Origin: Acidimicrobiia bacterium
GTDB taxonomy: Bacteria > Actinomycetota > Acidimicrobiia > Spongiisociales > UBA11373
Direction of reading: 5' to 3'
Length of the DNA stretch: 64,000 nucleotides
Assembly (NCBI GenBank): GCA_035464675.1
Contig: DATHSA010000066.1
Span: forward strand, 1,323 to 65,322
Part shown: positions 14 to 38,860 of the stretch, piece by piece
How positions within the stretch are numbered: the first letter of the stretch is position 1
How the letters are laid out: the number at the start of each line of letters is the position of its first letter
Position numbers and translations under genes: made by a program
The notes under the pieces: model-generated
The model's input: only the letters and a program-made list of their open reading frames with translations
What the model was told of the DNA's origin: nothing
The model's database searches: none

Positions 14-41
14 GGAAGAACCAGCAGCCTCCTGCTGCTGG
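14..41 (-). terminator. Putative intrinsic terminator hairpin downstream of mltG
   Basis: 8-bp inverted repeat CCAGCAGC (21-28) / GCTGCTGG (34-41) with a 5-nt loop. On the minus strand it is followed by TTCTTCC (20-14). It lies just after the mltG stop. Confidence 0.4.
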
Positions 42-68
42 CTGGTCGCTGGTTGCTGGTCGCTGGAT
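34..68. repeat. 5 x 7-nt tandem array (GCTGCTG GCTGGTC GCTGGTT GCTGGTC GCTGGAT)
   Basis: Read directly. The array ends at nt 68 and the mltG stop codon (tca) is 69-71, so the gap is 0 nt. Confidence 0.85.
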
Positions 69-1163
69 TCAGAGATACTGCTCCTGGAGCTCGAGGAACT
101 CTTCGAAGGTCTCGGCGAAGTGGGCCTTTCCCTCCTCGTCGGTGAGGAAGTACAGGTACTCGGTCTCGGCTGGGTTGGCAGCGGCGCGCAGTGACGTCGT
201 GCGCACGCCGGCGATCGGTGTCGGCGGCAGTCCCGTCACGACGTAGGTGTTGTACGGGGACTCGATCTCGAGGTCCTCGAGCGACAAACCGTCCTCGGGG
301 AGTGCTCCCAGCACATAGACCACCGTGGCATCGATCTGGAGCCTCATGTCCATCGCCAGCCGGTTGTAGATGACGCTGGCGATGAGCGGCCGGTCCTCGT
401 CGAACAGGGCCTCGCGCTCGATCAGCGAGGCGATGATCACCGCGTCGTAGGGCGCGAGATCGTGCTCCTCGAGTCGCCCCCAATCGATGGACCCCACCCG
501 GCTCTCCATCGTCCTCGCCATCCGGGTGAGGATCTCGGCGGCAGTGGCAGCGACCTCGAACTCGTAGGTGTCCGGGAACAGCATGCCCTCCCAGTCCTGC
601 AGGGCATCTGGCTCGTCCGGCATCAGGCTGGAGACGACCGTTCCGTCGAGGAGCACCCGCGAGAGCTCGTTGAAGGGGATCTCGGTCTGTTCCTCGATCG
701 ACTCGAGCATGCGGCCGATCGTCAGGCCCTCGATCACGGTCAGCCGGAAGGTCTCGCGCGATGGCCCGTCGATGAGGATGGCCAGCACCGCCTCCGGCGT
801 CATGCCCGTCTCCAGCTCATAACGCCCGGCCTGGAGCCGGTCGCTGGCGCGGGCATCCCGGACGGCGCGGTCGAATTCGGAGGCCGACGCCACCACTCCG
901 GCCTCGGCGAGTTGCCGGGCGATCTGGGACGCCGGCGCCCCGGCGGAGATCTCGATGGTCACCTCGAGGCCGGGAACGACGGTCGTCGCATCAGGCTGGG
1001 CTATCACGTCGTTCACCGCCGACGCCAGCCACTTCACGCCCAGGAACGCCACGGCGAACAGCAGCACGACGAACCCCAGGACGCCGAGGCCCCGGAGCAG
1101 GGTGTTGGGCCCGCTCCTCTCGGTGTCCGATCCCGGCTCGTACGGCTCGAGTTCGATGCTCAT
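69..1163 (-). CDS. mltG: Endolytic murein transglycosylase MltG (YceG family)
   Basis: N-terminal TM segment plus YceG-like C-terminus (LIASVIYNRLAMDMRLQIDATVVYVLG, SPYNTYVVTGLPPTPIAG). 4-nt overlap with ruvX upstream. Confidence 0.9.
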   Translation of the reverse strand: MSIELEPYEPGSDTERSGPNTLLRGLGVLGFVVLLFAVAFLGVKWLASAVNDVIAQPDATTVVPGLEVTIEISAGAPASQIARQLAEAGVVASASEFDRAVRDARASDRLQAGRYELETGMTPEAVLAILIDGPSRETFRLTVIEGLTIGRMLESIEEQTEIPFNELSRVLLDGTVVSSLMPDEPDALQDWEGMLFPDTYEFEVAATAAEILTRMARTMESRVGSIDWGRLEEHDLAPYDAVIIASLIEREALFDEDRPLIASVIYNRLAMDMRLQIDATVVYVLGALPEDGLSLEDLEIESPYNTYVVTGLPPTPIAGVRTTSLRAAANPAETEYLYFLTDEEGKAHFAETFEEFLELQEQYL

Positions 1164-1564
1164 CTTCTCTCCAGCCAGTCCTGCAGCAGCACGGCCGCCG
1201 CGGCGCCGTCACGCAATTCCCGCCGGCGATCGCGCCGGGTATCCGTCTCGATCATGGCCCGCTCGGCGATCGCGGTCGTGAACCGCTCGTCCACCAGCTC
1301 GGTCGGGACACCGGTGGCTTCGGCGATCTCGGCGGCAAAGGCCCGGGCCGCGGCTGCCGATGGCCCTTCTGATCCGTCGAGGCTCACCGGCAACCCCACG
1401 ACGATACGCTCGATCTCGAGTTCTGCGATCAGCTCGCAGACCTGCTCCACGACGGGACCCGACGCGCTGAGGTGACCGCGCGGATGGGCGGCGATCCCGG
1501 CAGCGTCGCTGACGGCCACGCCGATGCGGACCGAGCCATGGTCGAGGGCGAGAACACGGCCCAC
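1160..1564 (-). CDS. ruvX: Holliday junction resolvase-like / pre-16S rRNA nuclease RuvX (YqgF)
   Basis: VGRVLALDHGSVRIGVAVSD ... IERIVVGLPVSLDGSEG ... DERFTT. The GTG at 1564 sits one nt after the alaS TGA (1566-1568). The longer ORF to 1942 overlaps alaS and looks non-coding. Confidence 0.85.
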   Translation of the reverse strand: MGRVLALDHGSVRIGVAVSDAAGIAAHPRGHLSASGPVVEQVCELIAELEIERIVVGLPVSLDGSEGPSAAAARAFAAEIAEATGVPTELVDERFTTAIAERAMIETDTRRDRRRELRDGAAAAVLLQDWLERR

Positions 1565-1565
1565 T

Positions 1566-4202
1566 TCACATCCGGCCCAGCGACTCTCGGGCGAGGCGGC
1601 CCGCCTCCTCCAGACCGTCTGCGAGACGGTCGCCCTGTGGTCCGCCTGCCTGCGCCATCTCCGGATCGCGGCTCGACCCGCCACCCACCAGGGCCGCCGC
1701 GGGGCCGGCGATGTCGGCGGCACTGGCCCCGGCGGCGACGAGGTCCTTGCTGACCACCACCACCAGTGCCGCCTTCCCGTCCCGAGCGCTGCCGAGAACG
1801 GCGATTCCCGATCCCATTCGGTCGCGAACCTGCATCCCCAACTGGCGAAGCGCGTCGGGTGTGAGATCCGGTTGCTCCGCGACGACGAGTCGCTTTCCGT
1901 CGACTTCCTCTGCCGCCTCGACCAGCTCGGCCGCAGCGTCACTGCGAGTCTGCGATTCGAATTGGGCGATCCGCTCCTCCTGGCGGCGCGACCGCTCGGC
2001 GATCGTCGCTGCCGCCTCGTCTACCTGATCCAGCGGCACACGCAGGCTGTCGGCAGCCGACCGCAGCCGGCGCCGGAGCCCCGCGAAGTACTCGTAGCCC
2101 GATGCACCGGTGTAGGCCTCTATGCGGCGGAGGTTCGAACCGATCGACGACTCGCCGACCACCACCAGCGGTCCGACCTGACCCGTGGTGTGGACATGGG
2201 TACCGCCGCAGAGCTCACGCGAGTAGCTCCCCGCCTCGACGATCCGCACGACTTCGCCGTACTTGTCACCGAAGAACGCGAGCGCTCCGAGCTCTTCGGC
2301 CTCGCGGCGCGTCGCCTCGTAGGCGCGGACATGGGCGTTCTCTATCACCCGCTCGTTGGCGAGGCGCTCCACCTCGAGCACCTCGTCGCCGGACAGCGCC
2401 TCGTAGTGCGAGAAGTCGAAGCGCAGCCTGCCCGACTCGACCAGGGATCCCGCCTGCTGGACGTGAGGGCCGACCACCGTGCGCAGAGCCCAGTGCAGGA
2501 TGTGTGTTCCCGAGTGGCTCTTCCGGATGCGCTCGCGCCGACCCGGCTCGACGCTCAGAGCCGCCACCTGGCCCACCGACACCGTCCCGCTCGCCACGGT
2601 CGCCCGGTGGCCATGGAGATCCTGGAGGGCGTGCTGGGTGTCGGAGATGTGCAAGGTCCCGGTCTCGGTGGTCGCGGTGCCCGTGTCGCCCACCTGACCC
2701 CCCGACTCGGCGTAGAACGTCGTGGCATCGAAGAACACCTCGACGTCTTGCCCCGCCTCCGCCGTCTCGATCGCCTCACCGGCGGCGACGATCGCCAGCA
2801 CGGTCCCCTGGGTGTCGACCCGCTCGTATCCCTCGAAGCGAGTCGGGCCGGACCGGTCATAGATGGCTCGATAGACCTTCGGAGCGTCCTCGGTCGTCAC
2901 CTTGCTGCGCGCCGCGCGAGCGCGCTCTCGCTGCAGCGCCATCTCGGCGTCGAACGCCGGCCGATCGACTTCCACACCGCGCTCGGCGGCGATCTCCTCG
3001 GTCAGCTCCACCGGAAACCCGAACGTGTCGTGCAGCTTGAACGCGGTCTCGCCAGACAGGGTGGCCCCTTCGGTCATGTCCTCGAGCTCGGCGCTGAGAA
3101 GGCTGTGCCCCGACTCGAGCGTCCTCCGGAAGCGCTGCTCCTCTCGCTCGGCCGTCTCGGAGATCCCGTCGATCGCCTCGCGAAGCGCCGGATAGGCATC
3201 GCCCATGGCCTCGACCGTCGCCGCCACCAGTCGCGGGGTGATGTTGTCTTCGGCGCCGAGCTGCCAACCATGGCGAACGGCTCGCCGCAACAGGCGCCGC
3301 AGCACATATCCCCTCCCCTCGTTGGACGGCACCACGCCGTCGGCGATCAGATGGGTGATCGCCCGGCCATGGTCTGCGAGGATCCGCAGGCTCACGTCGG
3401 TCTCGGGTCGATTGCCGTACTGCACGCCCGTGGCCGCCTCGCCGGCGGCTAGCACCGGGCGAACGAGGTCGGTGAGGAAGACGTTGTCCACCCCCTGGAG
3501 CAGGACGCACACCCGCTCGAGCCCCGATCCGGTGTCGATGTTCTTGGAGGGAAGGTCGCCGATCACGTTGTACGGCTCGTCCTGCACGTACTGCATGAAG
3601 ACCAGGTTCCAGAACTCCATGTGGCGCTCTTCGTCGACGATTGGGCCGCCCTCCTCACCGAACTCGGGCCCCCGGTCGTAGAAGATCTCGGAGGACGGGC
3701 CGGCGGGACCGGCGACACCCATCTGCCAGAAGTTGTCGCGGTCGCGGCGCTGAACCCGTTCGGCGGGAACGCCGACGCCATCGATCCACAGCTGCGCGGC
3801 CTCGTCGTCGCTGTGATGCACCGTGAACCACAGCCGCTCGGGGTCCATCTCGTAGACCTCGGTGATCAGCTCGTAGGCCCAGGGGATGGCCTTCTCCTTG
3901 AAGTAGTCGCCCCCGAAGGAGAAGTTCCCGAGCATCTCGAAGAACGACATGTGCCGCGCGGTGGTGCCGACGATCTCGATGTCGTTGGTCCGGATGCACT
4001 TCTGTGAAGTCGTGGCGCGGGGGTAGGGCGGCTTCTCCTCGCCCAGCAGATAAGGCTTGAAGGGGACCATGCCCGCCACCGTGAGCAGCAGCGAGGGGTC
4101 GACCGGGATCAGCGACGCCGAGGGCACCACGGGATGGCCCCGCTCGGCAAAGAAGTCGAGAAAGGCGCGCCGGACCTCGGAGCCCCCGATCGGTCTGCTC
4201 AT
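1566..4202 (-). CDS. alaS: Alanine--tRNA ligase
   Basis: MSRPIGGSEVRRAFLDFFAERGH, TSQKCIRTNDIE, HMSFFEMLGNFSFG, editing-domain HSGTHILH and CGGTHV. ATG at 4202 chosen (878 aa). The ORF-track extension to 4679 overlaps rarA. Confidence 0.95.
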   Translation of the reverse strand: MSRPIGGSEVRRAFLDFFAERGHPVVPSASLIPVDPSLLLTVAGMVPFKPYLLGEEKPPYPRATTSQKCIRTNDIEIVGTTARHMSFFEMLGNFSFGGDYFKEKAIPWAYELITEVYEMDPERLWFTVHHSDDEAAQLWIDGVGVPAERVQRRDRDNFWQMGVAGPAGPSSEIFYDRGPEFGEEGGPIVDEERHMEFWNLVFMQYVQDEPYNVIGDLPSKNIDTGSGLERVCVLLQGVDNVFLTDLVRPVLAAGEAATGVQYGNRPETDVSLRILADHGRAITHLIADGVVPSNEGRGYVLRRLLRRAVRHGWQLGAEDNITPRLVAATVEAMGDAYPALREAIDGISETAEREEQRFRRTLESGHSLLSAELEDMTEGATLSGETAFKLHDTFGFPVELTEEIAAERGVEVDRPAFDAEMALQRERARAARSKVTTEDAPKVYRAIYDRSGPTRFEGYERVDTQGTVLAIVAAGEAIETAEAGQDVEVFFDATTFYAESGGQVGDTGTATTETGTLHISDTQHALQDLHGHRATVASGTVSVGQVAALSVEPGRRERIRKSHSGTHILHWALRTVVGPHVQQAGSLVESGRLRFDFSHYEALSGDEVLEVERLANERVIENAHVRAYEATRREAEELGALAFFGDKYGEVVRIVEAGSYSRELCGGTHVHTTGQVGPLVVVGESSIGSNLRRIEAYTGASGYEYFAGLRRRLRSAADSLRVPLDQVDEAAATIAERSRRQEERIAQFESQTRSDAAAELVEAAEEVDGKRLVVAEQPDLTPDALRQLGMQVRDRMGSGIAVLGSARDGKAALVVVVSKDLVAAGASAADIAGPAAALVGGGSSRDPEMAQAGGPQGDRLADGLEEAGRLARESLGRM

Positions 4203-4248
4203 GCGCTGAAAGGGTAATGGTGAGAGGACGCTGCCCATTGCGGGGCGA

Positions 4249-5586
4249 TCAGTCGTTGCGTCCGGCGCGGCCCATGCGCTCGTCCACGTCGGCCAACCGC
4301 TCCGCCAGCTCCCGCTCGGCGCCGGTGTCGCCTGGCCGATAGAGGAATCTGCCCGCGGCCTCGTCGGGGAGATACTGCTGGGCAGCCACGTTGCCGGGGT
4401 GATCGTGGGGGTAGACATAGCCGACTCCGTGGCCCAGCTTCTCGGCTCCGCGGAAGCCGGTCGAGCGCAGGTGGGGTGGGACCCGGGCGGCCGGCGTCTC
4501 CTCGACCGCCGCCCGTGCGGCCGAGATCGTCCGCCCCACGGAATTCGACTTCGGCGCCGTCGCCAGGTACAGCGCCGCGTGGTGGAGCGCATAGGAGGCC
4601 TCGGGCAAGCCGACGAACTGCAGGGCATGGGCGGCATCGACCGCAACTGCGAGCGCTCGCGGGTCGGCGAGCCCGACATCCTCCGAGGCGAGGATCACCA
4701 TGCGCCGGGCGATGAACTCCGGGTCCTCACCGGCATCGAGCATCGTCTGGAGCCAGTAGGCCGCGGCGTCCGGGTCGGATCCGCGGAGGCTCTTGATGAA
4801 CGCCGAGATGACGTCGTAGTGCTGGTCGCCCGCCTTGTCGTACCGGATCACCCGGTGCTGGAGCCCCTGCTCGACCGCATCGATGCCGATCACGTCTTCG
4901 CCGCGGCCGGCGGCGATCACCGCCGCCACCTCGAGGGCGTTGAGGGCGAGACGGGCGTCGCCGCCGGAACGCCCGGCGAGAAGCCGGGCCGCCTCCTCGT
5001 CGATCCGATCGGGCTCGGCCACGCCGCGGTCCCGATCCGCCATGGCTCGCTCGATCAGTTCGCCCACGGCCTCGACACCGAGTGGTTCGAGGCGGAAGAG
5101 CAGGCTCCGGGAGATGAGTGGAGAGTTGACCTCGAAGAACGGGTTCTCCGTGGTCGCCCCGACCAGGATCACGGTGCCGTCCTCGACACCAGGCAGCAGT
5201 GCATCCTGTTGCGCCTTCGTGAAGCGGTGGATCTCATCGAGGAACAGCACCGTCCGCCTCTCGTCCTGCTCGAGGCGGTGGCGCGCCGATGCCAGCACCT
5301 CGCGTACCTCCTTGACCCCGGCGGAGGTCGCCGACATCGGCTCGAATGCAGCATCGGTCGATCCGGCGACGAGGCGCGCCAGGGTGGTCTTGCCGGTGCC
5401 GGGCGGGCCCCAGAGGATCATCGACGCGGGACGGCCCGAACGGACCATCGTCCCGAAGGCGGCGTCGTCGGCCCGGAGGTGCTCCTGGCCGACGACCTCT
5501 TCGAGGCTCGCCGGCCGCATCCTCGCCGCAAGCGGCTCGGCGGCCCGGCGCCGATCGGCACGCTCCCCGGCGAAGAGATCATCCAT
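4249..5586 (-). CDS. rarA: Replication-associated recombination protein A (AAA+ ATPase)
   Basis: Walker A LWGPPGTGKTTLARL, Walker B LFLDEIHRF, MgsA C-terminal domain (YDVISAFIKSLRGSDPDAA). Confidence 0.9.
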   Translation of the reverse strand: MDDLFAGERADRRRAAEPLAARMRPASLEEVVGQEHLRADDAAFGTMVRSGRPASMILWGPPGTGKTTLARLVAGSTDAAFEPMSATSAGVKEVREVLASARHRLEQDERRTVLFLDEIHRFTKAQQDALLPGVEDGTVILVGATTENPFFEVNSPLISRSLLFRLEPLGVEAVGELIERAMADRDRGVAEPDRIDEEAARLLAGRSGGDARLALNALEVAAVIAAGRGEDVIGIDAVEQGLQHRVIRYDKAGDQHYDVISAFIKSLRGSDPDAAAYWLQTMLDAGEDPEFIARRMVILASEDVGLADPRALAVAVDAAHALQFVGLPEASYALHHAALYLATAPKSNSVGRTISAARAAVEETPAARVPPHLRSTGFRGAEKLGHGVGYVYPHDHPGNVAAQQYLPDEAAGRFLYRPGDTGAERELAERLADVDERMGRAGRND

Positions 5587-8584: not shown

Positions 8585-9228
8585 CGGAATGCCTCGAGGA
8601 AGGGGTTGGACTCGAGCTCCCGCGCAAGGGTAGTTGTGGGGCCGTGACCCGGAAAGACGGCGGTCTCGGGTGGCAACGGCAGCACCCTCTCTCCCATCGA
8701 ACGCATCAGGGCCTGAAAGTCCCCCCCGGGCAGGTCGGTCCGTCCGATCGACCCTGCGAACAGCTGGTCCCCGCTGAACAGCGCCCCCTCTCCGGGAACC
8801 CAGAAGCAGCAGTGGCCCGGTGTGTGGCCGGGGGTGTGGAGCACCTCGATCCCGAGGCCTGCCAGCCCGAGCACCTGACCGTCGGTGAGGCTCTCGTAGC
8901 GGTCCGGCTGCTCGAAGTCCCCAGGCGGAGTGGCCCCCCACAGGGCCTGGAGCTGGAGCCGGGGGTCGGCGGCGAGCCACTCGTCGTCGGGATGGAGGTA
9001 CGCCGACATCGCAAAGGCGTGTGCCACTGCCCCGGCGGCACCCAGGTGGTCGATGTGAGCGTGGGTCAGCAGCAGGGCGACGGGGATCAGGTCGTGGCGG
9101 GCAAGCAGAGCGAGCACTCCGTCCGCGTCGGGAGGGGCGTCGACCACCACTGCAGGACCGCCCGGCTCCGGAGCCATCACCCAGCAGTTGGTGCCGGCGA
9201 GCCAGAGGGGCTCCGAGTCGATGAGCAT
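8581..9228 (-). CDS. MBL-fold metallo-hydrolase (glyoxalase II-like)
   Basis: THAHIDHLG metal motif, HTPGHTPGH, FSGDQLF. Confidence 0.85.
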   Translation of the reverse strand: MLIDSEPLWLAGTNCWVMAPEPGGPAVVVDAPPDADGVLALLARHDLIPVALLLTHAHIDHLGAAGAVAHAFAMSAYLHPDDEWLAADPRLQLQALWGATPPGDFEQPDRYESLTDGQVLGLAGLGIEVLHTPGHTPGHCCFWVPGEGALFSGDQLFAGSIGRTDLPGGDFQALMRSMGERVLPLPPETAVFPGHGPTTTLARELESNPFLEAFR

Positions 9229-9261
9229 GGCCGCAACCTACCCGGCCGTCTGGCGGCGGCG

Positions 9262-11950: not shown

Positions 11951-11968
11951 GCGGCGATTGTACGGACC

Positions 11969-12050
11969 GTCGCCCGTCACCGGTCGCCCCGTCACCGGTG
12001 GAATCAGACGATCGATGCCGACCGGCGACGGGAGACGGGAGACGAGAGGC
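11969..12050. repeat. Paired heptamer arrays between secF and apt
   Basis: Left array GTCGCCC GTCACCG GTCGCCC c GTCACCG (11969-11997). Right array CGGCGAC GGGAGAC GGGAGAC GAGAGGC (12023-12050). They are partly complementary (CCCGTC/GACGGG cores). The right array ends 3 nt before the secF stop (12054). Confidence 0.75.
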
Positions 12051-17466: not shown

Positions 17467-17535
17467 CCCGTCGCCCGTCTCCCGTGCCGATCGGGGCGAG
17501 CACGCCCGGGGAACGGGAAACGGGGAACGGGGAAC
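17467..17535. repeat. Paired heptamer arrays between ruvB and queA
   Basis: CCCGTCG CCCGTCT CCCGTGC (17467-17487) and GGGGAAC GGGAAAC GGGGAAC GGGGAAC (17508-17535). The cores CCCGT/ACGGG are complementary. The right array is a (G3-4 N3-4)x4 motif. Confidence 0.8.
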
Positions 17536-18592: not shown

Positions 18593-19161
18593 GGCCGCCC
18601 CAGCTTCTGCAGCGCGGCGCGGAGCAGTGCCTCGGGCGCCTGGTCGACGTCGAGCCCGTCGAGAGCCTCGCGAATCTCCGAGGCGGCGTAGCCGAGGCCC
18701 TCCAGCGCCCCCCGAACGTCACTCAGCGATCCACCGGCGGGCACCAGCTCTCCATCCGGCATCGCCAGCCGCGCCCGCAGGTCGAGCACGAGCTTCTGGG
18801 CACTCCTCTTGCCGATCCCGGGGACCGACGTGAGCACGTCGACGTCCTCGGCAGCCAGCGAGAGCCGCAACTGTTCCGGGGTGAGGGTCGCCAGGATCGC
18901 CAGCGCCAGCTTCGGCCCGACACCACTGGCCCCTATGAGATCACGGAAGAGATCGCGGCTCTCCTCGGAGGCGAAGCCGTAGAGGGCCATCACGTCCTCG
19001 CGGACATGGAGATGGGTGTGGACCACGACGTCTTCGCCCACCGGAGGGAGGGCGGCGATGTCGCGCGGTGGCATGGCCACCTCGTAGCCGACCCCGCCGG
19101 TGTCGACCACCACACCCGAAGCGGTCCGCTCGGCGAGCACGCCGCGAATCCGCCCGATCAT
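18589..19161 (-). CDS. ruvA: Holliday junction DNA helicase subunit RuvA
   Basis: MIGRIRGVL, HhH motifs [11 protein letters not shown] and [15 protein letters not shown] at 19161 overlaps the ruvC stop (ATGA). Confidence 0.93.
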
Positions 19162-19658
19162 GTCCGCGCCCCGTCCACGGCGCGGCGTAGGCCTGCCGAC
19201 TGGAGATGACACAGAGCGACCGCAAGGGCATCGGCGGCATCCGCCGGCGACGGGGCCTCGGCGAGTCCGAGGCGGCGGGCGACCATCGCCTGCACCTGGT
19301 GCTTGGTCGCATCGCCGTAGCCGGCGACGCCCATCTTCACCGCCGACGGGGTGTACTCGAACACGTCGAGCCCGGCACTCGCCGCGGCGAGCATCGCCAC
19401 ACCGGACGCCCTGCCCACCGACGTCGCGGTCTGAAGGTTGCGGTTCACGAAGATCTACTCGATGGCAACCTCTCCGGGCCGATACTCGGCTATGACCGCC
19501 GCGAGGTCGTCGTGGAGCTCGCGCAGTCGCCGGGCCACCGGCTCACCGGGGGCGGTCGAGATGACACCTGCCGCGACTGCGCGCATCGCGGCATTCGTCG
19601 CCTCGACGACGCCGTATCCGGTCCGCGACAGCCCGGGATCGATGCCGAGAACGAACAT
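19158..19658 (-). pseudogene. ruvC: Crossover junction endodeoxyribonuclease RuvC interrupted by an in-frame TAG
   Basis: ORFs 19455..19697 (MFVLGIDPGLSRTGYG...EVAIE*) and 19158..19448 (VNRNLQTA...ADAADALAVALCH) are in the same frame. They are separated only by TAG (plus-strand cta at 19455-19457). Confidence 0.8.
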
Positions 19659-19714: not shown

Positions 19715-19812
19715 AGATTCGCGATTCGCCATACGCGATAGACGGACGCGCACATGCTCTCGAGGCGGCGCAGATCCGATCGGTCGAGTCGCGTACTGCG
19801 AATCGCGTATTG
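19715..19812. repeat. AT-richer heptamer arrays forming a 19-nt imperfect inverted repeat
   Basis: GATTCGC GATTCGC CATACGC GATAGAC. Arm 19720-19738 (cgcgattcgccatacgcga) against arm 19789-19807 (tcgcgtactgcgaatcgcg) is 17/19 complementary, with a 50-nt loop. Lies between the yebC stop and the ruvC start. Confidence 0.75.
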
Positions 19813-19823
19813 CGTGGCGGGCT

Positions 19824-28055: not shown

Positions 28056-28092
28056 CAGCCGCCGGCAAGCGCCACGGGTAGCCTCCCTCTCC

Positions 28093-28689: not shown

Positions 28690-28734
28690 GAGGCACGCGG
28701 CGAGCGGCTCGCGATCACCTCTTCTTGCGATCTG

Positions 28735-31850: not shown

Positions 31851-31926
31851 CGCAGGCTACGACGAGTCGACATGGCGTCCAAAAACCACGAGCCCCGCGG
31901 AAGCAGGCCTATGGACCGGCGAATTC

Positions 31927-32355
31927 TCACGCGCTCGGATCGTCGAAGTGGATGAGCACCCCGTCCTGGACCGATCCGAGGATTCCGTACGGCTCGTCGG
32001 TCCACTTGACGGTGGCAAGCCCGCTGCCTGGCGGCGCCATCTCGAGCGCCATGCCCTCCGTCGAGAACCCCTCGACCACGATCGTGGCTCCGCCCGGCTG
32101 GGGTGGGTACGACTCGAGGATGGCGTCGGCGAGTACGACGGACCCGTCCTCGAGGACGAACAAGTAGGCCTCGACGAGCACCAGGTCGGTCGGGTCCGCC
32201 AGGAGGGCCTGCTCGACCGAGATGGGATCACCCGAGATCGGATCACCGACACGGACGCCACGTGGAGCGATCGTCGTGTCGGGGGGCATGGTTGTGGTCA
32301 GCTCATCCGCCGAGGCGTCGCCGCACGCGGCGAGGAGAGCGGCTGCAGCCAACAT
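31927..32355 (-). CDS. Putative lipoprotein
   Basis: Short signal peptide with lipobox LLAAC-G. 142 aa, downstream of the MMPL gene on the same strand. Confidence 0.55.
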   Translation of the reverse strand: MLAAAALLAACGDASADELTTTMPPDTTIAPRGVRVGDPISGDPISVEQALLADPTDLVLVEAYLFVLEDGSVVLADAILESYPPQPGGATIVVEGFSTEGMALEMAPPGSGLATVKWTDEPYGILGSVQDGVLIHFDDPSA

Positions 32356-32446
32356 TGTCCAGTTTCTTCTTCACCTGGTGTCTCCTTGTCGCCCGCTTTG
32401 ATGAAAGCGGGCGCCGACCGGTTCCCGCGCGAGGACCCCGCAATTG

Positions 32447-32480
32447 GCGATTCGCAATTCGCTACACGACGGACGGGCCA
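32447..32480. repeat. AT-richer heptamer array related to 19715-19745
   Basis: GGCGATTCGCAATTCGCTACACGACGGACGGG resembles CGCGATTCGCCATACGCGATAGACGGACGCG at 19720-19750. Confidence 0.6.
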
Positions 32481-32510
32481 ACGCGTCCCGCCCCGACCGC
32501 AAGTCTCTTG

Positions 32511-32573
32511 CGGGCGACGGGCGACGGGCGACGGGCGACGGGCGACGGGCGACGGGCGACGGGCGACGGGCGA
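32511..32573. repeat. Perfect 9 x 7-nt tandem repeat (CGGGCGA)9
   Basis: Counted directly: nine identical units. It ends 2 nt before the thrS stop (cta at 32576-32578) and lies ~155 nt upstream of the lipoprotein gene start (32355). Confidence 0.97.
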
Positions 32574-32575
32574 CG

Positions 32576-34501: not shown

Positions 34502-34520
34502 GGGGCGGACAGGGTAGATC

Positions 34521-34548
34521 GTTGCCCGTTGCCCGTTGCCCGTTACCC
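34521..34548. repeat. Heptamer array (GTTGCCC)3 GTTACCC in the thrS 5' leader
   Basis: Read directly. Starts 20 nt upstream of the thrS ATG (34501). On the thrS sense strand it reads GGGTAAC (GGGCAAC)3. Confidence 0.9.
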
Positions 34549-34650
34549 GCCGGACGACTCCTGTCTCCCATCACCCGTCGCCGATTGAGCCTCCTGCCTC
34601 GCGGTCATGGTGGGCATCGACGAGACCGCCGGGGCGGGTATGCCCCTCAG

Positions 34651-34685
34651 GCTGGTTGCTGGCCCCTGGTTGCTGGTTGCTCTCC
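34651..34685. repeat. Heptamer array GCTGGTT GCTGGCC CCTGGTT GCTGGTT GCTCTCC
   Basis: Read directly. Same unit type as the array at 34-68. Confidence 0.8.
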
Positions 34686-35020
34686 CTCTGCCACGGCACG
34701 CAGGCGACATCCGCGTGCGGGCCCTGAGAAGCCTCGATGGCTCGTGAGGCAAAACCGGCAACCGCGTCGCCGACCCGCGGAAGACTTCCACGTGATGTTG
34801 CTGCCGAACACCTCTCCCCAGCCGGCGTGGAGCCACTCCCAGCCGAGCCAGATCCGGGCAGTGAGCCACAGTCAGGCGGTCTTGCTGGATCCGAAGAGCC
34901 ATCTCGCAAAGAGTGGTTCTTCGACCTGAACGACGGTCGGCCTCGCCACCTATCCCCTCCCGTGGGCCTTGTCCACCGACCCTGGGGATGACCTCGTCGC
35001 TCTCCCGCCGCGCGTGATGT

Positions 35021-35167
35021 TCAGCCGAACTGCCTGCCGCAGCCCGGGCAGGAGGTGTCGTCGGCGTAGGTATGCGATCGGCACCAGGGGCAGGGCAGGT
35101 CGGGATCGATCGGATCGTGGAGCAGCACGAGACGGAGTGACCGCTCGCGATTCTCGGAACGCGCCAT
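35021..35167 (-). CDS. Putative 48-aa zinc-ribbon microprotein
   Basis: MARSENRERSLRLVLLHDPIDPDLPCPWCRSHTYADDTSCPGCGRQFG has two CxxC pairs. Strong SD (AGGAG) 9 nt upstream of the ATG at 35167. Confidence 0.5.
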   Translation of the reverse strand: MARSENRERSLRLVLLHDPIDPDLPCPWCRSHTYADDTSCPGCGRQFG

Positions 35168-35342
35168 GGTTGCTCTCTCCTCTCCCGCCCGAAGGGCGAG
35201 GCTAGGCAACGCCGCCGCGGCGACCAAGGATTTCGAGATACAGAGGGACACGCGTCCCCAGCGGGAGATGCGGGGACCTTCGGGCGGTCCGCGACGGGTC
35301 CGGCACGACGGCTGGCGGCCCCACCGATATCATCCCGGGTTC

Positions 35343-36338
35343 ATGTCACGCGTAGGCCTGGTACTCGGCGGCGGCGGAGTGACCGGCGGCGCCTTCCACG
35401 TGGGTGCCCTGTTCTCGCTCCGCATGGCCACCGAATGGGACCCCGGAGACGCCGACGTCATTGTCGGCACGTCGTCGGGGGCGGTCATCGGCGCCCTGGC
35501 CCGCACCGGGCATCTCGAATTGGAGTCGATCGTCGGAGACGTGAAGGGCGCCCCCCAGCTCGCCCGACTCCTCGACAAGATCATCTACCGCCGCGGCCGG
35601 CCAACGGGTGTCGGGCGCTGGGTCCGCCACGGGATCCTCCCCGGTCTCCGCAAGCCGGGGATCAGGCTGGCGTTGGGCTGCCCGGCGCCCTACACGACCT
35701 CCGGCGTCCAGTCGTGGCTCGAACGGGCGATGGGCGAGGATGCCGACACCTGGCCGGACCGGCCGACCACGATCGTCGGCTACCAGCTCGAGGGCAAGCA
35801 CCGGGTCGCGTTCGGCACCGATGACAGCCCGGACGCCTCGCTGGCCAGGGCAGTGGCCGCGTCCGCTGCGGTTCCGATGCTCTTTGCCCCGGTGGAGATC
35901 GACGGCTTCCACTACGTGGACGGAGGCGTGGCGAGCGGCACGAACGCCGACCTGGTGCTCGGTTCTCCAGAGCCGCTCGACCTCGTGATCGTGAGCGCTC
36001 CGATGGCTTCGGTCGAGAAGCGACCCGATGCCAGGTTCTATGAGGGAGTCGTGGACCGCCTTGGCGGGTCGGCCCTCACCGCCGAGCTCGATGCCATACG
36101 TCGGGCCTGGCCCGACACCGAGATCATCGTTCTCCGACCGGACAGGCACGTCCTGGCTGAGACCCGGCCCAACCCTCTCGACACGTCCGCCGCGTTGCCC
36201 GCATTCCTCAGGACCCTGAGATCGATGCGCCGCACCCTCGGCTCGCCCGAAGTCTGGCCGGTGCTGGAACGCCACCTGGTGACCCGCAAGAAGCAGTCAC
36301 TCTGGGACCGAATGCAGGGGCGAGTCGCGGCGCGATGA
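35343..36338 (+). CDS. Patatin-like phospholipase
   Basis: Oxyanion GGGGVTGG, nucleophile elbow GTSSG (GxSxG), catalytic Asp in YVDGGV. ATG at 35343; the upstream ORF extension overlaps the divergent microprotein. Confidence 0.85.
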   Translation: MSRVGLVLGGGGVTGGAFHVGALFSLRMATEWDPGDADVIVGTSSGAVIGALARTGHLELESIVGDVKGAPQLARLLDKIIYRRGRPTGVGRWVRHGILPGLRKPGIRLALGCPAPYTTSGVQSWLERAMGEDADTWPDRPTTIVGYQLEGKHRVAFGTDDSPDASLARAVAASAAVPMLFAPVEIDGFHYVDGGVASGTNADLVLGSPEPLDLVIVSAPMASVEKRPDARFYEGVVDRLGGSALTAELDAIRRAWPDTEIIVLRPDRHVLAETRPNPLDTSAALPAFLRTLRSMRRTLGSPEVWPVLERHLVTRKKQSLWDRMQGRVAAR

Positions 36339-36362
36339 GAGGCGACTCCCCGACGGGACACC

Positions 36363-37883
36363 TCAGACAACCGTGACGACCACCCGGTGGTGACCGGTGG
36401 CCCCATCGGGACGCGGTGGTTCCCTGTCCGCCGTCTGGACGTTCCCGACGCCGTCGATCACCCGCACCTCGATCGCCCGGTTTCCGGCGGTCAGCTGGGG
36501 ACGGGCCCGCCACTGAGTCCAGGCTTTCGATGACAATGGAGTGGCCACCTCGGCCGTCATCCACTCCCCGTCGTCGACCCGGATCTCGACCGAGTCGACG
36601 CCTTCCAGCGGGGCCCAGGCCACGCCCGCCACGTCGACGGTGCCGGCAACGACCTCCGCCCGGGGTCTGGGGACGTCGATGCGGGAGTGCATCTTGATCG
36701 GGCCCTCCTTGGCCCATCCCCGGGGCACCCAGTAGGCGTCGAAGGCCTCCCACGTCGTCAGTTCGATGTCGGAGAGCCACTTCGTCGCGGACACATAGCC
36801 GTAGAGCCCGGGAACGATGATCCGGGCCGGGAACCCGTGGGCGAGGGGAAGCGGCTCGTCGTTCATCCCGATCGCCAGGATCGGCTCGCGGCCGTCGAAG
36901 GCCAACTCGGTCGGGAAACCGGCCGTCCAATCGTCCACCGAACGTCCGACGATCTGAGACGCACCCTGCCGGACGCCGGCTCGGTCGAGGAGCTCGGTAA
37001 GACGGACCCCGGTCCATTTCGCGTTGCCGACGAGGTCGCCCCCCACCCGGTTCGACACGCACGCGAGCGTGACGTACTGCTCCACGAGGTCCATCTCGAG
37101 CAGGTCGTCATATGTGAGCCTCACCTCTCTGTCCACCATCCCGTGGATTCGCATCGACCAGCTCTGCTCGTCGATCCTCGGCACCACGAGTGCGGTGTCG
37201 ATCCGGTAGAAGGTCTCGTTCGGCGTCACCAGAGGGCTGATGCCCGGCAGGTCGATGGAACTCCCGGGCGGCGGTGGCGGCACCGTCACGCCTGCCGCGG
37301 GAATGTCGATGACCGGTGATGCCGGGATGCGGGTCACCAGATAACGGCCGAAGCCACCCGCGACCACTGCGGCCGCTCCCCCGGCCGTCGCGAGCGCGAC
37401 GAATCGCCGTCGGCTCTGATCGGCGGGCACCCCGTCGGTGGGCTGTTCCCCTTCGCCGACTGCTCCGAGCAAGGTGTGCAACGTTCCCAATCCGGCGCCG
37501 GCAGCGATGAGGAGGGACGCGTAGACGAGCGGTGTCTCTGCGAAGGGCTGCCCGACACCGGCAGCGATCCCGACCGCGGCGAAGACGATGAACACCGCCG
37601 CACCCAGCCATGGCAGGGTCCGTGTGTACACACCCGTGAACCAGCCGATCACGAGGGCGAGAATGATCGTGCCGATCGCCAGGGCGAGTTTGTCGGCCGT
37701 GCCGAAGAGCGAGATGGCGAAGTCCTCGACCCATGACGGCGACTGGTCGACGACCCAGGACCCCACTGCGGCGACCGGCGAGGGGATCCCGTCGACGATC
37801 CCGGCGATCAACTCACCGACCCCGAGCGCGACACCGGCGGACACCGTGCCGGCGACGCCGGCTCTCGTGCTCGATGGGTTCAT
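36363..37883 (-). CDS. Membrane-anchored molybdopterin-dependent oxidoreductase (sulfite oxidase fold)
   Basis: N-terminal multi-TM region, then a SUOX-like Moco domain (TLACVSNRVGGDLVGNAKWTGVRLTELL, HGFPARIIVPGLYG) and an Ig-like C-terminal domain. Confidence 0.82.
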   Translation of the reverse strand: MNPSSTRAGVAGTVSAGVALGVGELIAGIVDGIPSPVAAVGSWVVDQSPSWVEDFAISLFGTADKLALAIGTIILALVIGWFTGVYTRTLPWLGAAVFIVFAAVGIAAGVGQPFAETPLVYASLLIAAGAGLGTLHTLLGAVGEGEQPTDGVPADQSRRRFVALATAGGAAAVVAGGFGRYLVTRIPASPVIDIPAAGVTVPPPPPGSSIDLPGISPLVTPNETFYRIDTALVVPRIDEQSWSMRIHGMVDREVRLTYDDLLEMDLVEQYVTLACVSNRVGGDLVGNAKWTGVRLTELLDRAGVRQGASQIVGRSVDDWTAGFPTELAFDGREPILAIGMNDEPLPLAHGFPARIIVPGLYGYVSATKWLSDIELTTWEAFDAYWVPRGWAKEGPIKMHSRIDVPRPRAEVVAGTVDVAGVAWAPLEGVDSVEIRVDDGEWMTAEVATPLSSKAWTQWRARPQLTAGNRAIEVRVIDGVGNVQTADREPPRPDGATGHHRVVVTVV

Positions 37884-37951
37884 GACTCTCCAACGCTCCC
37901 CGCCTCGGCCCCGGTTCCATCTCCGGACCCGGATGCGCGTCCCTCTACGAT

Positions 37952-38263
37952 TTGAGGGCCGACGACAGGAGGGTGATGACCCAGCCGACCGATCGACCCG
38001 TGTGGCAGACCCGCAGGTTCCGACTGATCGTCCTCTACGGCGTCGTGGCCTTGCTGGCGCTGATCCTGATCCTCCAGAACTTCGACACCACCGAGGTGCA
38101 ATTCCTGTGCTGGCGGGCGGAAGCCCCTCTGGCGTGGGTCTTGATGACCTTCATGGTGCTCGGCGCGGGAGTCGACGAGCTGGTGCGGGTCGTGGTGCGG
38201 AGGCGGCGAGCCAAGAAGGAGGAGCTGCGACGGGCGCGTTCCGAGCGGCAAGAGGAGTTCTAG
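37952..38263 (+). CDS. LapA/DUF1049-like small membrane protein
   Basis: Two TM helices and a basic C-terminal tail RRRRAKKEELRRARSERQEEF. Confidence 0.6.
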   Translation: MRADDRRVMTQPTDRPVWQTRRFRLIVLYGVVALLALILILQNFDTTEVQFLCWRAEAPLAWVLMTFMVLGAGVDELVRVVVRRRRAKKEELRRARSERQEEF

Positions 38264-38273
38264 GGGCAGGCCC

Positions 38274-38747
38274 CTAGACCCGCGGCGCGGGGAACACGGC
38301 CGGTGCGCGGCGCCCGGTGATCTCTTCCTCACCCCACGTGTCGTGATACCAGACGTGGCGGATCATCAGCCGGGCCTGCTCGATCCATTCCGCGATCATC
38401 GCCTTGCTGGGTAGTCGCTTGACATCACGCTCGACCGCGTGCGCGATCTCGACCTCTTCGGCGAGCTCGGCGGGGTTACGGGTGCTCAGGTCCGCGATGT
38501 CCTCGACACCGGCCCGGGCAAGGAGCCGGGCGTAGTCGTCGCTGACGCCCTTGACCCGCATCAGGTCGGCCCGCTGTACCCAGTTGGCGATCCGCTGGAT
38601 AGAGACCTTGGCGGCCCTTGCGATCTCTCGGCGACCGTCGGGGGTGCTCCCCCATCTCAGGAGCTTCGCGGTACCAGGTACCCCCGCCTCCTTGAGTCGT
38701 TCGATCTGCTTGTCGGTGATCCCCTTGAGGCTGTTCAGCCCGGCCAT
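38274..38747 (-). CDS. DUF4332-like helix-hairpin-helix protein
   Basis: MAGLNSLKGITDKQIERLKEAGV...VKGVSDDYARLLARAGVEDIADL. ATG at 38747; the upstream part of the ORF is Arg-rich junk. Confidence 0.65.
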   Translation of the reverse strand: MAGLNSLKGITDKQIERLKEAGVPGTAKLLRWGSTPDGRREIARAAKVSIQRIANWVQRADLMRVKGVSDDYARLLARAGVEDIADLSTRNPAELAEEVEIAHAVERDVKRLPSKAMIAEWIEQARLMIRHVWYHDTWGEEEITGRRAPAVFPAPRV

Positions 38748-38825
38748 GTCGCTCCCGTTCTGCCGTCCCCAAGGTACCAACTGGAACCCCTGTATCGGCG
38801 GCTTTCGGCTCGCGCGAGGGCATCC

Positions 38826-38860
38826 GGGTAACGGGCAACCGGCAACGGGAAACGGGTTCC
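38826..38860. repeat. Heptamer array GGGTAAC GGGCAAC CGGCAAC GGGAAAC GGGTTCC
   Basis: Read directly. It abuts (0-nt gap) the stop codon tca at 38861-38863 of the upstream minus-strand gene. Confidence 0.88.

What the first reader, a model, noticed from the sequence alone, without database searches (positions are those of the whole stretch)
34..38860. Dispersed family of 7-nt-period tandem arrays confined to intergenic DNA, often starting 0-3 nt after stop codons
Seen in the sequence. Period-7 arrays occur at:
- 34-68 (GCTGGTY x5)
- 11969-11997 and 12023-12050
- 17467-17487 and 17508-17535
- 19715-19745 and 19789-19812
- 32447-32480 and 32511-32573
- 34521-34548
- 34651-34685
- 38826-38860

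Position:
- None lies inside a confident CDS.
- Four abut the stop codon of the upstream minus-strand gene: mltG (0-nt gap), secF (3 nt), thrS (2 nt) and the 92-aa ORF (0 nt).

Sequence properties:
- Many units fit GGGNRAC. Tandem copies therefore give G3 runs with 4-nt loops, the canonical G-quadruplex motif (G3+ N1-7)x4.
- For the thrS-3', ruvB-3' and 38826 arrays the G-rich strand is the template strand of the gene that has just ended.

Established knowledge: heptameric STRR repeats are known from heterocystous cyanobacteria. I do not know of an equivalent described for actinobacteria.

Inference: the arrays could be structured terminator or insulator elements, hypermutable spacers, or footprints of an unrecognised repeat-generating mechanism.
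Basis: partly seen in the sequence, partly recalled or inferred. Interest (0 to 1): 0.65.

Follow-up and report, generated by a model that had tools for sequence, protein, structure and literature searches.

The report
Heptanucleotide tandem repeats in an Acidimicrobiia genome
The 7-base tandem arrays are real, strictly intergenic and often form paired hairpin arms, but they are a new lineage's example of the long-known, still unexplained heptanucleotide repeats of cyanobacteria, Xanthomonas, Geobacter and Chloroflexus, not a new kind of element.

Summary
At score >=9, 9 of 9 period-7 arrays lie in the 9.4% of the window that is intergenic. Dinucleotide shuffles give none, and other periods that are not multiples of three give at most one. 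Four arrays start 0-5 nt after a stop codon. They recur in assemblies from two other samples, so they are not artefacts.

- Three sites are inverted pairs whose arms fold into 25-35 bp hairpins.
- The trait is clade-wide. Relatives with 78-89% ThrS identity carry arrays, some in the same gaps but with different units. A 73% relative and 47 other related loci are nearly array-free.
- Polarity is C-rich arm then G-rich arm. That is the minority type elsewhere (12 against 41).

Only 3 arrays carry a canonical G4 motif. Copy number was identical in near-identical strains, but one arm holds 5 of 14 strain differences.

Heptanucleotide arrays of this kind are described in Nostoc/Calothrix, Xanthomonas, Geobacter and Chloroflexus. 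ACGGGNN arrays also occur in Streptomyces and many phyla.

Best reading: slippage-generated repeats that fill the slack between a stop codon and the next promoter. A role as transcript-end hairpins is plausible but unproven.

Verdict: new member of a known kind, moderate interest.

The parts
34..68 (-). Array of about 4.5 heptamers. It reads CCAGCRA/RACCAGC on the mltG sense strand and starts 0-2 nt after the mltG stop (69-71). An AGGAGG Shine-Dalgarno-like site of the next gene follows.
   Evidence: TRF 41-66; lag-7 score 14; sequence; mltG identified by TIGR00247.
12019..12050 (-). First, C-rich arm (sense CUCCCGU/CGUCGCC units), 3 nt after the secF stop (12054-56).
   Evidence: SecF identified by TIGR00966.
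11967..11999 (-). Second, G-rich arm (sense GGUGACGGGGCGACC x2). It pairs with 12019-12050 and abuts a TACAAT -10-like hexamer (11957-11962) 6 nt upstream of the likely apt GTG start (11950).
   Evidence: TRF period 15, 2.1 copies. Hairpin -55.2 kcal/mol, z = -3.05. Sense -53.5 against antisense -48.1 kcal/mol, 4 G.U pairs against 0. The apt HMM starts at residue 16 of the long ORF.
17507..17535 (-). First, C-rich arm (sense GUUCCCC x4), about 30 nt after the ruvB stop (17567-69). Canonical G4 motif on the + strand. Hotspot of differences between strains.
   Evidence: Five of 14 differences over 21,026 nt fall in 17502-17532.
17467..17487 (-). Second, G-rich arm (sense ACGGGAG ACGGGCG ACGGGGA). 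It pairs with 17507-17535 and lies upstream of the queA start (GTG 17421).
   Evidence: Hairpin -71.7 kcal/mol for the whole gap, z = -3.2. Sense -56.7 against antisense -52.2 kcal/mol, 3 G.U pairs against 0.
19715..19814 (-). Pair of GCGAWUC-type arrays (19716-19740 and 19785-19814) between the yebC stop (19824-26) and the ruvC start. The two arms pair with each other.
   Evidence: TRF. Stem of about 25 bp, whole-gap z = -1.24. Sense and antisense are about equally stable.
32511..32575 (-). Perfect (CGUCGCC) x9.3 on the thrS sense strand, starting at the base after the thrS stop (32576-78). C-rich and predicted unstructured as RNA. The + strand carries a canonical G4 motif.
   Evidence: TRF 100% matches, score 130. 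Fold z = +2.0. Identical in L001. The orthologous position in relatives holds arrays with other units.
32439..32480 (-). Weak array (GCAAUUG/GCGAUUC units) in the same gap, upstream of a small hairpin and the Shine-Dalgarno site of the 142-aa ORF.
   Evidence: TRF 76% matches; lag-7 score 7.
34520..34549 (-). (GGGCAAC) x4.3 on the thrS sense strand, 3 nt upstream of a conserved TACCCT -10-like hexamer (34511-34516) that lies 9 nt before the thrS ATG (34501). Canonical G4 motif on the sense strand.
   Evidence: ACTACCCT is conserved upstream of thrS in L288, L289, L291 and L292.
34651..34685 (.). GCTGGTT-type array (75% matches) in the 841-nt divergent gap between thrS and the patatin-like gene.
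38825..38860 (-). Array (sense CCCGUUN x4.6), 0-4 nt after the stop of the 92-aa ORF (38861-63) and upstream of the DUF4332 gene.
   Evidence: Identical in the Logan SRR9691047 contig L283.

Best explanation
**What it is (shown).** These are short tandem arrays (3-9 copies) of heptanucleotides. They belong to the same class as the cyanobacterial STRR sequences and the heptameric long SSRs of Xanthomonas, Geobacter and Chloroflexus. Here they occur as a lineage-specific burst in an uncultured Acidimicrobiia clade.

**How they arise (inferred).**
- They grow and are homogenised by slipped-strand mispairing in 7-nt (sometimes 14-nt) steps.
- In inverted pairs, one arm is probably copied into the other by template switching.
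- They survive only outside genes, because a 7-nt unit shifts the reading frame.
- They expand to fill the unconstrained spacer between a stop codon and the next gene's -10 or Shine-Dalgarno site. That is why they abut stop codons.

**What the clade shows (shown).**
- An array persists in the same gap, for example directly after thrS, while its unit sequence turns over.
- Single arrays are C-rich on the leading, gene-rich strand.
- Inverted pairs always read C-rich arm then G-rich arm.

**What they do (inferred, not shown).** Their effect is independent of sequence. At transcription-unit boundaries the pairs give 25-35 bp RNA hairpins without a U-tail, and single arrays give C-rich unstructured tracts. 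These could end, pause or insulate transcripts. Selection for this is weak at best.
For: **Period-specific and intergenic.**

**Slippage signatures.**
- Sub-repeats of period 14/15.
- Each arm is homogenised separately: NCCCGUU in the ruvB-3' arm against NCCCGUC as the complement of the partner arm.
- Five clustered changes in one arm between strains that are 99.93% identical.

**Filling of slack.** Arrays lie 0-5 nt from stops and 3 nt from the -10-like hexamers of thrS and apt.

**Hairpins.** z = -3.05 and -3.2.

**Clade-wide trait.**
- 0.094 arrays/kb in the window, against 0.0042/kb in 721 kb of other related loci.
- Relatives at 89, 85, 84 and 78% ThrS identity all carry arrays; the 73% relative has none.

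**Same gap, different unit.** After the thrS stop the unit is CGTCGCC x9 in the window, AGCCTCC x4 in L288 and CGCCTTC-like in L291. The flanks are alignable.

**Strand and polarity.**
- 18 arrays are C-rich and 7 G-rich on the thrS-sense strand.
- Pairs are 5 C>G and 0 G>C in the clade, against 12 and 41 elsewhere.

**3'-end preference in other genomes.** Arrays per kb are 1.53 in convergent gaps, 1.1-1.3 in co-directional gaps and 0.75 in divergent gaps.

**Same class in the literature.** PMC4692102, PMC2700814, PMC6749651, PMC4679880.
Against: **On function**
- There are no expression or 3'-end data.
- The hairpins lack U-tails, and consensus terminators are not above shuffle expectation in the window.
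- Sense hairpins are more stable than antisense in 2 of 3 window sites, but only 8 against 6 across other genomes.
- The variant arm in strain L284 weakens the hairpin by about 10 kcal/mol without compensation.
- The array after mltG is followed by a Shine-Dalgarno site, so it probably lies inside an operon.

**On distribution and origin**
- Arrays are absent from 39-64 kb of the window.
- Nothing here explains why the period is 7 rather than 5, 8 or 10.
- Slippage itself was not observed: no copy-number difference was found among 9 arrays in three near-identical strain contigs.
Confidence: 0.6

Rival explanations
1. Neutral by-product only. The arrays are junk generated by a lineage-specific slippage bias and have no role. 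Their position reflects only where indels are tolerated.
For: - Unit sequences are unrelated between sites and between relatives.
- Arrays come and go among orthologous gaps. The 92-aa ORF 3' array is species-specific, and the citrate-synthase gap has arrays in L289 and L291 but not in the window.
- The changes in the L284 arm are not compensated.
- There is no general sense/antisense asymmetry.
- Copy numbers follow a decaying distribution from 3-4 upward.
Against: - An array recurs at the same spot after thrS in four clade members, with conserved flanks.
- The C>G polarity of pairs is consistent in the clade, and there is a strong opposite bias elsewhere (41:12). A purely neutral process does not predict either.
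- Arrays are roughly twice as dense in convergent gaps as in divergent gaps.
Confidence: 0.3
2. Rho-loading (rut) sites. The C-rich, G-poor repeat placed directly after a stop codon is exposed when translation ends and recruits Rho to terminate transcription.
For: - All five 3'-proximal arrays in the window are C-rich on the sense strand, with C/G of 1.6 or more.
- (CGUCGCC) x9 is predicted to be less structured than shuffled sequence (z = +2.0).
- Canonical intrinsic terminators are not enriched.
- From general knowledge, actinobacteria rely heavily on Rho.
Against: - In two or three sites the C-rich arm is sequestered in a hairpin.
- Arrays next to opposite-strand genes in relatives are G-rich in the sense of those genes (L289 16199 and 16256; L291 16352). 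The rule therefore follows the chromosome strand, not the gene.
- In other phyla the sense strand after stops is more often G-rich (34 against 21).
- From general knowledge, cyanobacteria have heptamer arrays but no Rho.
- No rho gene or activity could be examined here.
Confidence: 0.15
3. G-quadruplex (or i-motif) regulatory elements, as proposed by the first reader and by Rehm et al. for Xanthomonas and Nostoc.
For: - All three intergenic canonical G4 motifs in the window are heptamer arrays.
- The one upstream of thrS lies on the sense strand next to the -10-like element.
- G4 formation in vitro has been shown for related GGGAATC and GGGGAYT repeats (PMC4692102).
Against: - Nine of about 12 arrays lack four G3 runs, and the RACCAGC and GCGAWTC arrays have none.
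- The 3-4 copy mode is the same for units without G or C runs.
- For the 3' arrays the G-rich strand is the template, so the RNA cannot form a G4.
- A G4-aware fold of the thrS leader prefers an ordinary hairpin.
Confidence: 0.08
4. Binding sites (iterons) for one regulator or RNA-binding protein, or copies of a small mobile element (REP/MITE-like).
For: [quoted passage not shown]
- Arrays often lie close to starts and stops.
Against: - At least three unrelated unit families occur in 39 kb, with different units at the same gap in relatives. No single recognition sequence fits.
- There are no conserved termini or flanks.
- Rfam finds only a tRNA.
- No transposase or RAYT-like gene turned up among the window ORFs scanned (about 40).
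Confidence: 0.05

Closest known systems
STRR (short tandemly repeated repetitive) heptanucleotide sequences of heterocystous cyanobacteria (Calothrix, Nostoc, Anabaena)
   Same: - Tandem 7-nt units.
- Several unrelated unit sequences per genome.
- Non-coding location and many dispersed copies.
- Function unknown.
   Different: - Different phylum (Actinomycetota, class Acidimicrobiia).
- Different units: RACGGGN, RACCAGC and GCGAWTC here, against CCCCAGT, TTGGTCA and CAACAGT as I recall them.
- Genome-wide copy number could not be measured from 64 kb.
G-rich heptameric SSRs GGGAATC (Xanthomonas) and GGGGAYT (Nostoc PCC 7120), Rehm et al. 2015 (PMC4692102)
   Same: - Intergenic bias and typically about 4 units.
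- Frequent inverted pairs able to form stem-loops.
- Closeness to ORF ends and depletion between divergent genes.
- Same gaps but variable sequence between related species.
   Different: - Polarity is reversed. [quoted passage not shown] Here it is C-rich after the stop and G-rich before the next start.
- Only a quarter of the arrays here are G4-competent.
Heptanucleotide elements of Geobacter metallireducens (4x GGGACCG at 49 sites; 5x MTYCTGA inverted pairs; PMC2700814) and the (GATAGRA)n satellites of Chloroflexus aurantiacus (PMC6749651)
   Same: - Four to five tandem heptamers, dispersed, some as inverted pairs.
- Species-specific unit sequences.
   Different: - In those genomes one unit dominates a family of dozens of copies, and some Geobacter copies are intragenic.
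- Here many units occur and none is inside a gene.
Hairpin-only ('I-shaped') terminator candidates and Rho-dependent 3' ends of actinobacteria
   Same: - GC-rich stem-loops without a U-tract, or C-rich tracts, at the 3' ends of transcription units.
   Different: - The stems here are unusually long (25-35 bp) and are built from 7-nt repeats.
- No transcript-end data exist.
- This is a functional analogy only.

Membership tests
Heptanucleotide long SSRs / STRR-like tandem repeats | Head-to-tail copies of a 7-nt unit, at least 3 copies | tested here: met
   TRF periods of 7 (or 14/15) with 2.7-9.3 copies at all listed sites; own scan.
Heptanucleotide long SSRs / STRR-like tandem repeats | Over-represented relative to composition-matched random sequence and to other unit lengths | tested here: met
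   6 arrays against 0.0 in shuffles; other periods not divisible by 3 give 0-1. Period 7 is also the commonest such period in 2.16 Mb of unrelated loci (36 against at most 12).
Heptanucleotide long SSRs / STRR-like tandem repeats | Located in non-coding DNA | tested here: met
   9 of 9 arrays (score >=9) lie in the 9.4% of the window that is intergenic.
Heptanucleotide long SSRs / STRR-like tandem repeats | Several distinct unit sequences dispersed in one genome, at high genome-wide copy number | tested here: inconclusive
   Three unit families were seen in 39 kb. Only 64 kb of the genome was available. A density of 0.09-0.14 arrays/kb would extrapolate to hundreds of copies, but 39-64 kb has none.
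Cyanobacterial STRR in the strict sense | Cyanobacterial host and the canonical STRR1-3 unit sequences | tested here: not met
   The host is Acidimicrobiia. The units differ from the STRR units, which I give from recollection and did not check against a paper.
G4-forming heptameric repeats (Rehm et al. 2015) | At least four G3+ runs separated by loops of 1-7 nt | tested here: not met
   Met by only 3 of about 12 arrays.
G4-forming heptameric repeats (Rehm et al. 2015) | [quoted passage not shown] | tested here: not met
   The opposite holds in the window and its clade. The published orientation is reproduced in other phyla (34 against 21 and 25 against 6; 41 G>C against 12 C>G).
G4-forming heptameric repeats (Rehm et al. 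2015) | K+-dependent quadruplex formation in vitro | not testable with these tools
   Needs CD or melting experiments on oligonucleotides.
Intrinsic (Rho-independent) terminator | GC-rich hairpin immediately followed by a U-tract | tested here: not met
   Hairpins are present at three sites but no T-run follows them. The consensus scan finds none at the arrays, and its counts equal the shuffle expectation.
Rho utilisation (rut) site | C-rich, G-poor, unstructured RNA of about 60-80 nt upstream of the release point | tested here: inconclusive
   Composition and lack of structure are met by the thrS 3' array. Other C-rich arms are paired. Counter-examples to the orientation exist in relatives.
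Rho utilisation (rut) site | Termination depends on Rho | not testable with these tools
   Needs Rho inhibition or depletion together with 3'-end mapping.
REP/REPIN or MITE-type mobile repeats | Copies share a conserved full-length sequence and termini; associated transposase (RAYT) or target-site duplications | tested here: not met
   Units and loops differ between sites. Rfam gives no family match. No transposase or RAYT-like gene was found among the window ORFs scanned (about 40).

The most novel reading that the evidence does not exclude
The clade (at least 78% ThrS identity) has acquired or altered a period-7-specific process. This could be a replication or repair activity with a 7-nt slippage register, or a factor that recognises heptad-periodic nucleic acid whatever its sequence. 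It installs and maintains arrays at stop-codon-proximal sites with a fixed polarity, C-rich arm then G-rich arm. That polarity is the reverse of the G-then-C polarity that dominates in other phyla. On this reading the arrays are sequence-independent, polarity-defined terminator or insulator modules rather than passive microsatellites.
Probability: 0.12. Interest if true: 0.7.

Novelty: new member of a known kind. Interest (0 to 1): 0.35.

Why it matters
Heptanucleotide tandem repeats have been known since 1990 and noted repeatedly in unrelated bacteria. Neither the preference for a 7-nt unit nor any function has been explained.

This case adds:
- an actinobacterial clade with a sharp on/off boundary against its sister lineages, which suits a search for the gene-content difference behind the trait;
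- evidence that an array can persist at one intergenic position while its unit sequence is replaced;
- a polarity rule for inverted pairs that is strongly biased across bacteria (G-rich arm first) and reversed in this clade.

These are leads for a comparative study, not a new mechanism. For annotation, the practical point is that such arrays mark transcription-unit boundaries and should not be called as ORFs, CRISPR-like arrays or novel RNAs.

Tried and rejected
1. **Known RNA family.** An Rfam gathering scan of the window found only tRNA-Val.

2. **Canonical terminators or sigma-70 promoters at the arrays.** Consensus scans gave counts equal to the shuffle expectation and no hits at the arrays.

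3. **Sense-specific RNA hairpin selection (G.U test).** It looked promising in the window: two of three hairpins were more stable in sense, with 7 G.U pairs against 0. It did not generalise: 8 against 6 in other genomes.

4. **A universal 'C-rich after the stop' rule.** Other phyla show the reverse, 34 G-rich against 21 C-rich. Within the clade, arrays beside opposite-strand genes keep the chromosome-strand orientation.

5. **CGATCG as a HIP1-like signal.** It sits at the apex of all three array hairpins and occurs 125 times, against about 22 expected from base composition. A higher-order Markov expectation is 141, so it is not over-represented.

6. **Copy-number polymorphism.** Three contigs from two other samples, 28.9 kb in total, showed identical copy numbers at all nine arrays covered.

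7. **Conservation in the nearest GTDB and JGI relatives.** The first sample of relatives (up to 73% ThrS identity) showed no arrays, which at first suggested a species-specific trait. Closer relatives from the protein search corrected this.

8. **More strains by exact-protein look-up.** SecF, Apt, YebC and the 142-aa ORF returned nothing new.

9. **Literature on actinobacterial heptamer arrays.** Six searches found no specific description. One search was too generic to be useful.


Full report

Yes. The clearest is a perfect CGGGCGA x9.3 at 32511-32575.

My own lag-7 scan finds six arrays at score >=11. Twenty dinucleotide-type shuffles give none, and periods 4, 5, 8, 10, 11 and 13 give 0-1.

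I built a gene map from GC3-guided ORFs and checked it with NCBIfam and Pfam. It reads mltG, alaS, rarA, aspS, hisS, relA, apt, secF, secD, yajC, tgt, queA, ruvB, ruvA, ruvC, yebC, pdxT, pdxS ... thrS. On this map, 9 of 9 arrays at score >=9 lie in the 5,995 intergenic bases, which are 9.4% of the window.

Four arrays begin 0-5 nt after the stop codons of mltG, secF, thrS and a 92-aa ORF.

The arrays are not assembly artefacts. Contigs from ENA sample ERZ27272641 (L001, L284) and Logan run SRR9691047 (L283) are 99.75-99.93% identical to the window. They carry the same arrays with the same copy numbers.

**2.

*Unit families.* There are at least three:
- RACGGGN, in about seven arrays;
- RACCAGC, at 34-68 and 34651-34685;
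- GCGAWTC/GCAATTG, at 19715-19814 and 32439-32480.

*Inverted pairs.* Three gaps hold pairs whose two arms are complementary arrays: secF>apt, ruvB>queA and yebC>ruvC. As sense RNA they fold into 25-35 bp hairpins.
- secF>apt: -55.2 kcal/mol, z = -3.05.
- ruvB>queA: -71.7 kcal/mol for the whole gap, z = -3.2.
- yebC>ruvC: z = -1.24.

*The thrS 3' array.* (CGUCGCC)9 has no partner and is predicted to be less structured than shuffled sequence (z = +2.0).

*Order along the transcribed strand.* The order is always stop, C-rich array, spacer, G-rich array, next gene.

*Promoter-like elements.* The G-rich arm or array ends 3 nt from a -10-like hexamer.
- For apt this is TACAAT, 6 nt before the likely GTG start.
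- For thrS it is TACCCT, 9 nt before the ATG. It lies within ACTACCCT, which is conserved in all five clade members.

So the arrays occupy exactly the stretch between one gene's stop and the next gene's promoter or ribosome-binding site.

*G4 motifs.* Only three arrays match the canonical motif: 17508-17532 and 32512-32570 on the + strand, and 34525-34548 on the - strand.

*Other scans.* Rfam finds nothing but a tRNA. Hairpin-plus-U terminators are not above shuffle expectation, and none coincides with an array.

**3. Whose genome, and how widespread is the trait?**

ThrS places the window in uncultured Acidimicrobiia.

In the first sample of relatives the arrays looked species-specific. Forty-seven loci (721 kb) with ThrS identity of about 55-73% have 0.0042 arrays/kb, against 0.094/kb in the window. 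The syntenic 73% relative L082 has none.

Closer relatives, found through the protein search, changed this picture:
- L288, 89% ThrS identity: four arrays in 6.2 kb.
- L289, 85%: eight arrays in 21.7 kb.
- L291, 84% (NCBI MAG GCA_040878325.1): five arrays.
- L292, 78%: one strong inverted pair directly upstream of thrS.

The trait therefore belongs to a clade and has a sharp boundary.

Immediately after the thrS stop the flanks are alignable but the unit differs:

| Genome | Unit after the thrS stop |
|---|---|
| window | CGTCGCC x9 |
| L288 | AGCCTCC x4.4 |
| L291 | CGCCTTC-like x3.5 |

An array has thus stayed at one position while its unit turned over. This is concerted evolution, or else repeated birth at the same spot.

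**4. Variation between near-identical strains**

Over 28.9 kb of strain comparison there are 21 differences. No copy-number change was seen at the nine arrays covered.

Five of the 14 differences in the 21-kb contig L284 fall within 17502-17532, the C-rich arm 3' of ruvB:
- GTTCCCC changes to GTTGCCC in two units.
- GTTTCCC changes to GCTTCCC.
- There are two further changes in the loop.

The partner arm is unchanged, so the hairpin weakens from -56.7 to -47.1 kcal/mol. Arrays can therefore change by clustered, multi-nucleotide events. Arm complementarity is not tightly conserved.

**5. Strand and polarity**

Within the clade, 18 arrays are C-rich and 7 are G-rich on the thrS-sense strand. That strand is the gene-rich one and has positive GC skew, so it is presumably the leading strand. 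Most of the G-rich arrays are second arms of pairs.

Arrays that lie next to genes on the other strand are still C-rich on the thrS-sense strand (L289 16199 and 16256; L291 16352). This favours a chromosome-strand (replication) rule over a gene-sense (rut) rule, but on very few cases.

The polarity of an inverted pair reads the same on both strands, so it can be compared across genomes without gene calls. Under uniform criteria:

| Group | C>G | G>C | Ambiguous |
|---|---|---|---|
| Window clade | 5 | 0 | 2 |

My hand calculation of Fisher's exact test gives about 0.0014.

The majority G>C polarity matches two other results. The sense strand after stops in other phyla is G-rich 34 times and C-rich 21 times. 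It also matches the orientation published for Xanthomonas and Nostoc (PMC4692102). The window's clade shows the minority, reversed polarity.

**6. What is already known**

- Rehm et al. [quoted passage not shown] 2007. That work suggested a link to the stretch of DNA contacted by the polymerase active site.
- The same paper describes intergenic GGGAATC and GGGGAYT arrays with about four units and with inverted pairs. The arrays sit in the same gaps but vary in sequence between species. They form G4 and i-motif structures in vitro, and no function has been demonstrated for them.
- The Geobacter metallireducens genome paper annotates 49 elements of four GGGACCG repeats, and inverted pairs of five MTYCTGA repeats (PMC2700814).
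- Chloroflexus aurantiacus has 22 (GATAGRA)n satellites (PMC6749651).
- Beggiatoaceae, cyanobacteria and Bacteroidetes share TAACTGA repeats (PMC4679880).

In my unbiased sample of 160 thrS loci, period 7 is the commonest period not divisible by three (36 arrays against at most 12). It is concentrated in a few genomes: Roseiflexaceae L064, Chloroflexi L067, Planctomycetia L072 and metagenome L157.

A scan of GTDB species representatives for ACGGGNN x4 hit its 120-locus limit. The hits span many phyla. About 21 are Actinomycetota loci, including at least 12 Streptomyces and another Acidimicrobiia MAG, L231. L231 carries CGTCCCT x6 starting 6 nt after a stop.

Those loci hold 85 further period-7 arrays with unrelated units. 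A propensity for heptamer arrays is therefore a property of a genome, not of a sequence.

Copy number peaks at 3-4 and decays. The distribution is the same for units without G or C runs, so the 'four units' preference is not a G4 signature.

Arrays per kb are 1.53 in convergent gaps, 1.1-1.3 in co-directional gaps and 0.75 in divergent gaps.

**7. Interpretation**

*Shown.* These are heptanucleotide tandem repeats of the STRR / long-SSR class. They are confined to intergenic DNA, many are inverted pairs, and the trait is clade-specific. They persist in position but turn over in sequence, with a consistent strand and polarity bias.

*Inferred.*
- They grow by slippage in 7- or 14-nt steps, and each arm is homogenised separately.
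- They are excluded from genes because the unit shifts the reading frame.
- They expand until they meet a constrained element: a stop codon, a -10 hexamer or a Shine-Dalgarno site.

*Functional reading.* This rests on position and predicted structure only. The paired arrays could act as U-less terminator, pause or stabiliser hairpins, and single C-rich tracts as possible Rho entry sites. Several results weaken it:
- there is no general sense/antisense asymmetry;
- the arm change in L284 is not compensated;
- there are orientation counter-examples in relatives.

A purely neutral origin remains a serious rival. The G4 reading explains only a minority of arrays. Regulator-site and mobile-element readings do not fit the diversity of units.

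**8. Verdict**

The finding is real and carefully observed. It is a new lineage's instance of a known and still unexplained class. Its added value lies in three things: the sharp clade boundary, the persistence of position with turnover of unit, and the reversed polarity of the pairs. All three can be tested by genome-wide comparison.

Noticed in passing
window 19455-19457 (- strand), within ruvC (19158-19658): ruvC carries an in-frame TAG where the conserved motif A-I-E-Q-(V/I)-F has Gln. The sense strand reads GCC ATC GAG TAG ATC TTC. This splits the gene into 67-aa and 96-aa ORFs. The same stop is present in the independent contig from ERZ27272641. It could be a pseudogene, stop-codon read-through or recoding.
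   Followed up: partly
window 41117-41189 and 45471-45511: tRNA-Val(CAC) and a 41-nt direct repeat of its 3' half (1 mismatch) bracket a segment of about 4.3 kb. The segment encodes a 978-aa TIR-WD40 protein (41200-44136) and a 173-aa ORF. It looks like an island integrated at the tRNA, with a defence-type gene.
   Followed up: partly
window 45303-45391: A period-11 array (ACGCGCACAAA x4.2) lies directly next to a 10-nt CTCAC-rich repeat. Both are in the 736-nt gap beside the duplicated tRNA end. This is the only strong tandem array in the window whose period is neither 7 nor a multiple of 3.
   Followed up: no
window 12009, 17488, 19777: CGATCG (CCGATCGG in two cases) sits at the apex of all three heptamer-array hairpins. 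The hexamer occurs 125 times in the window. That is about 6-fold above base-composition expectation but not above a higher-order Markov expectation (141). Only its position in the loops remains curious.
   Followed up: yes
window 34509-34516; L288, L289, L291, L292 just upstream of thrS: ACTACCCT is conserved 9-10 nt upstream of the thrS ATG in all five clade members. TACAAT lies 6 nt upstream of the likely apt GTG start (window 11957-11962). These look like -10 elements of leaderless or near-leaderless mRNAs.
   Followed up: partly
loci L002-L281 (other genomes): Across unrelated phyla, inverted pairs of heptamer arrays show a strong polarity bias: G-rich arm first in 41 pairs and C-rich arm first in 12. 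I found no mention of this polarity rule for inverted pairs in the four repeat papers whose passages I read.
   Followed up: partly
window 53188-53311 and 56275-56408: GTC/GTG-rich tandem repeats with periods that are multiples of 3 (18, 21, 27 and 45 nt) lie inside two minus-strand ORFs (52673-53401 and 55783-56466). They are probably repetitive low-complexity protein segments.
   Followed up: no
window 39737-40690: An HNH endonuclease with a DUF222 domain. It is syntenic in the relatives L283, L289 and L291, next to the zincin-like gene.
   Followed up: no
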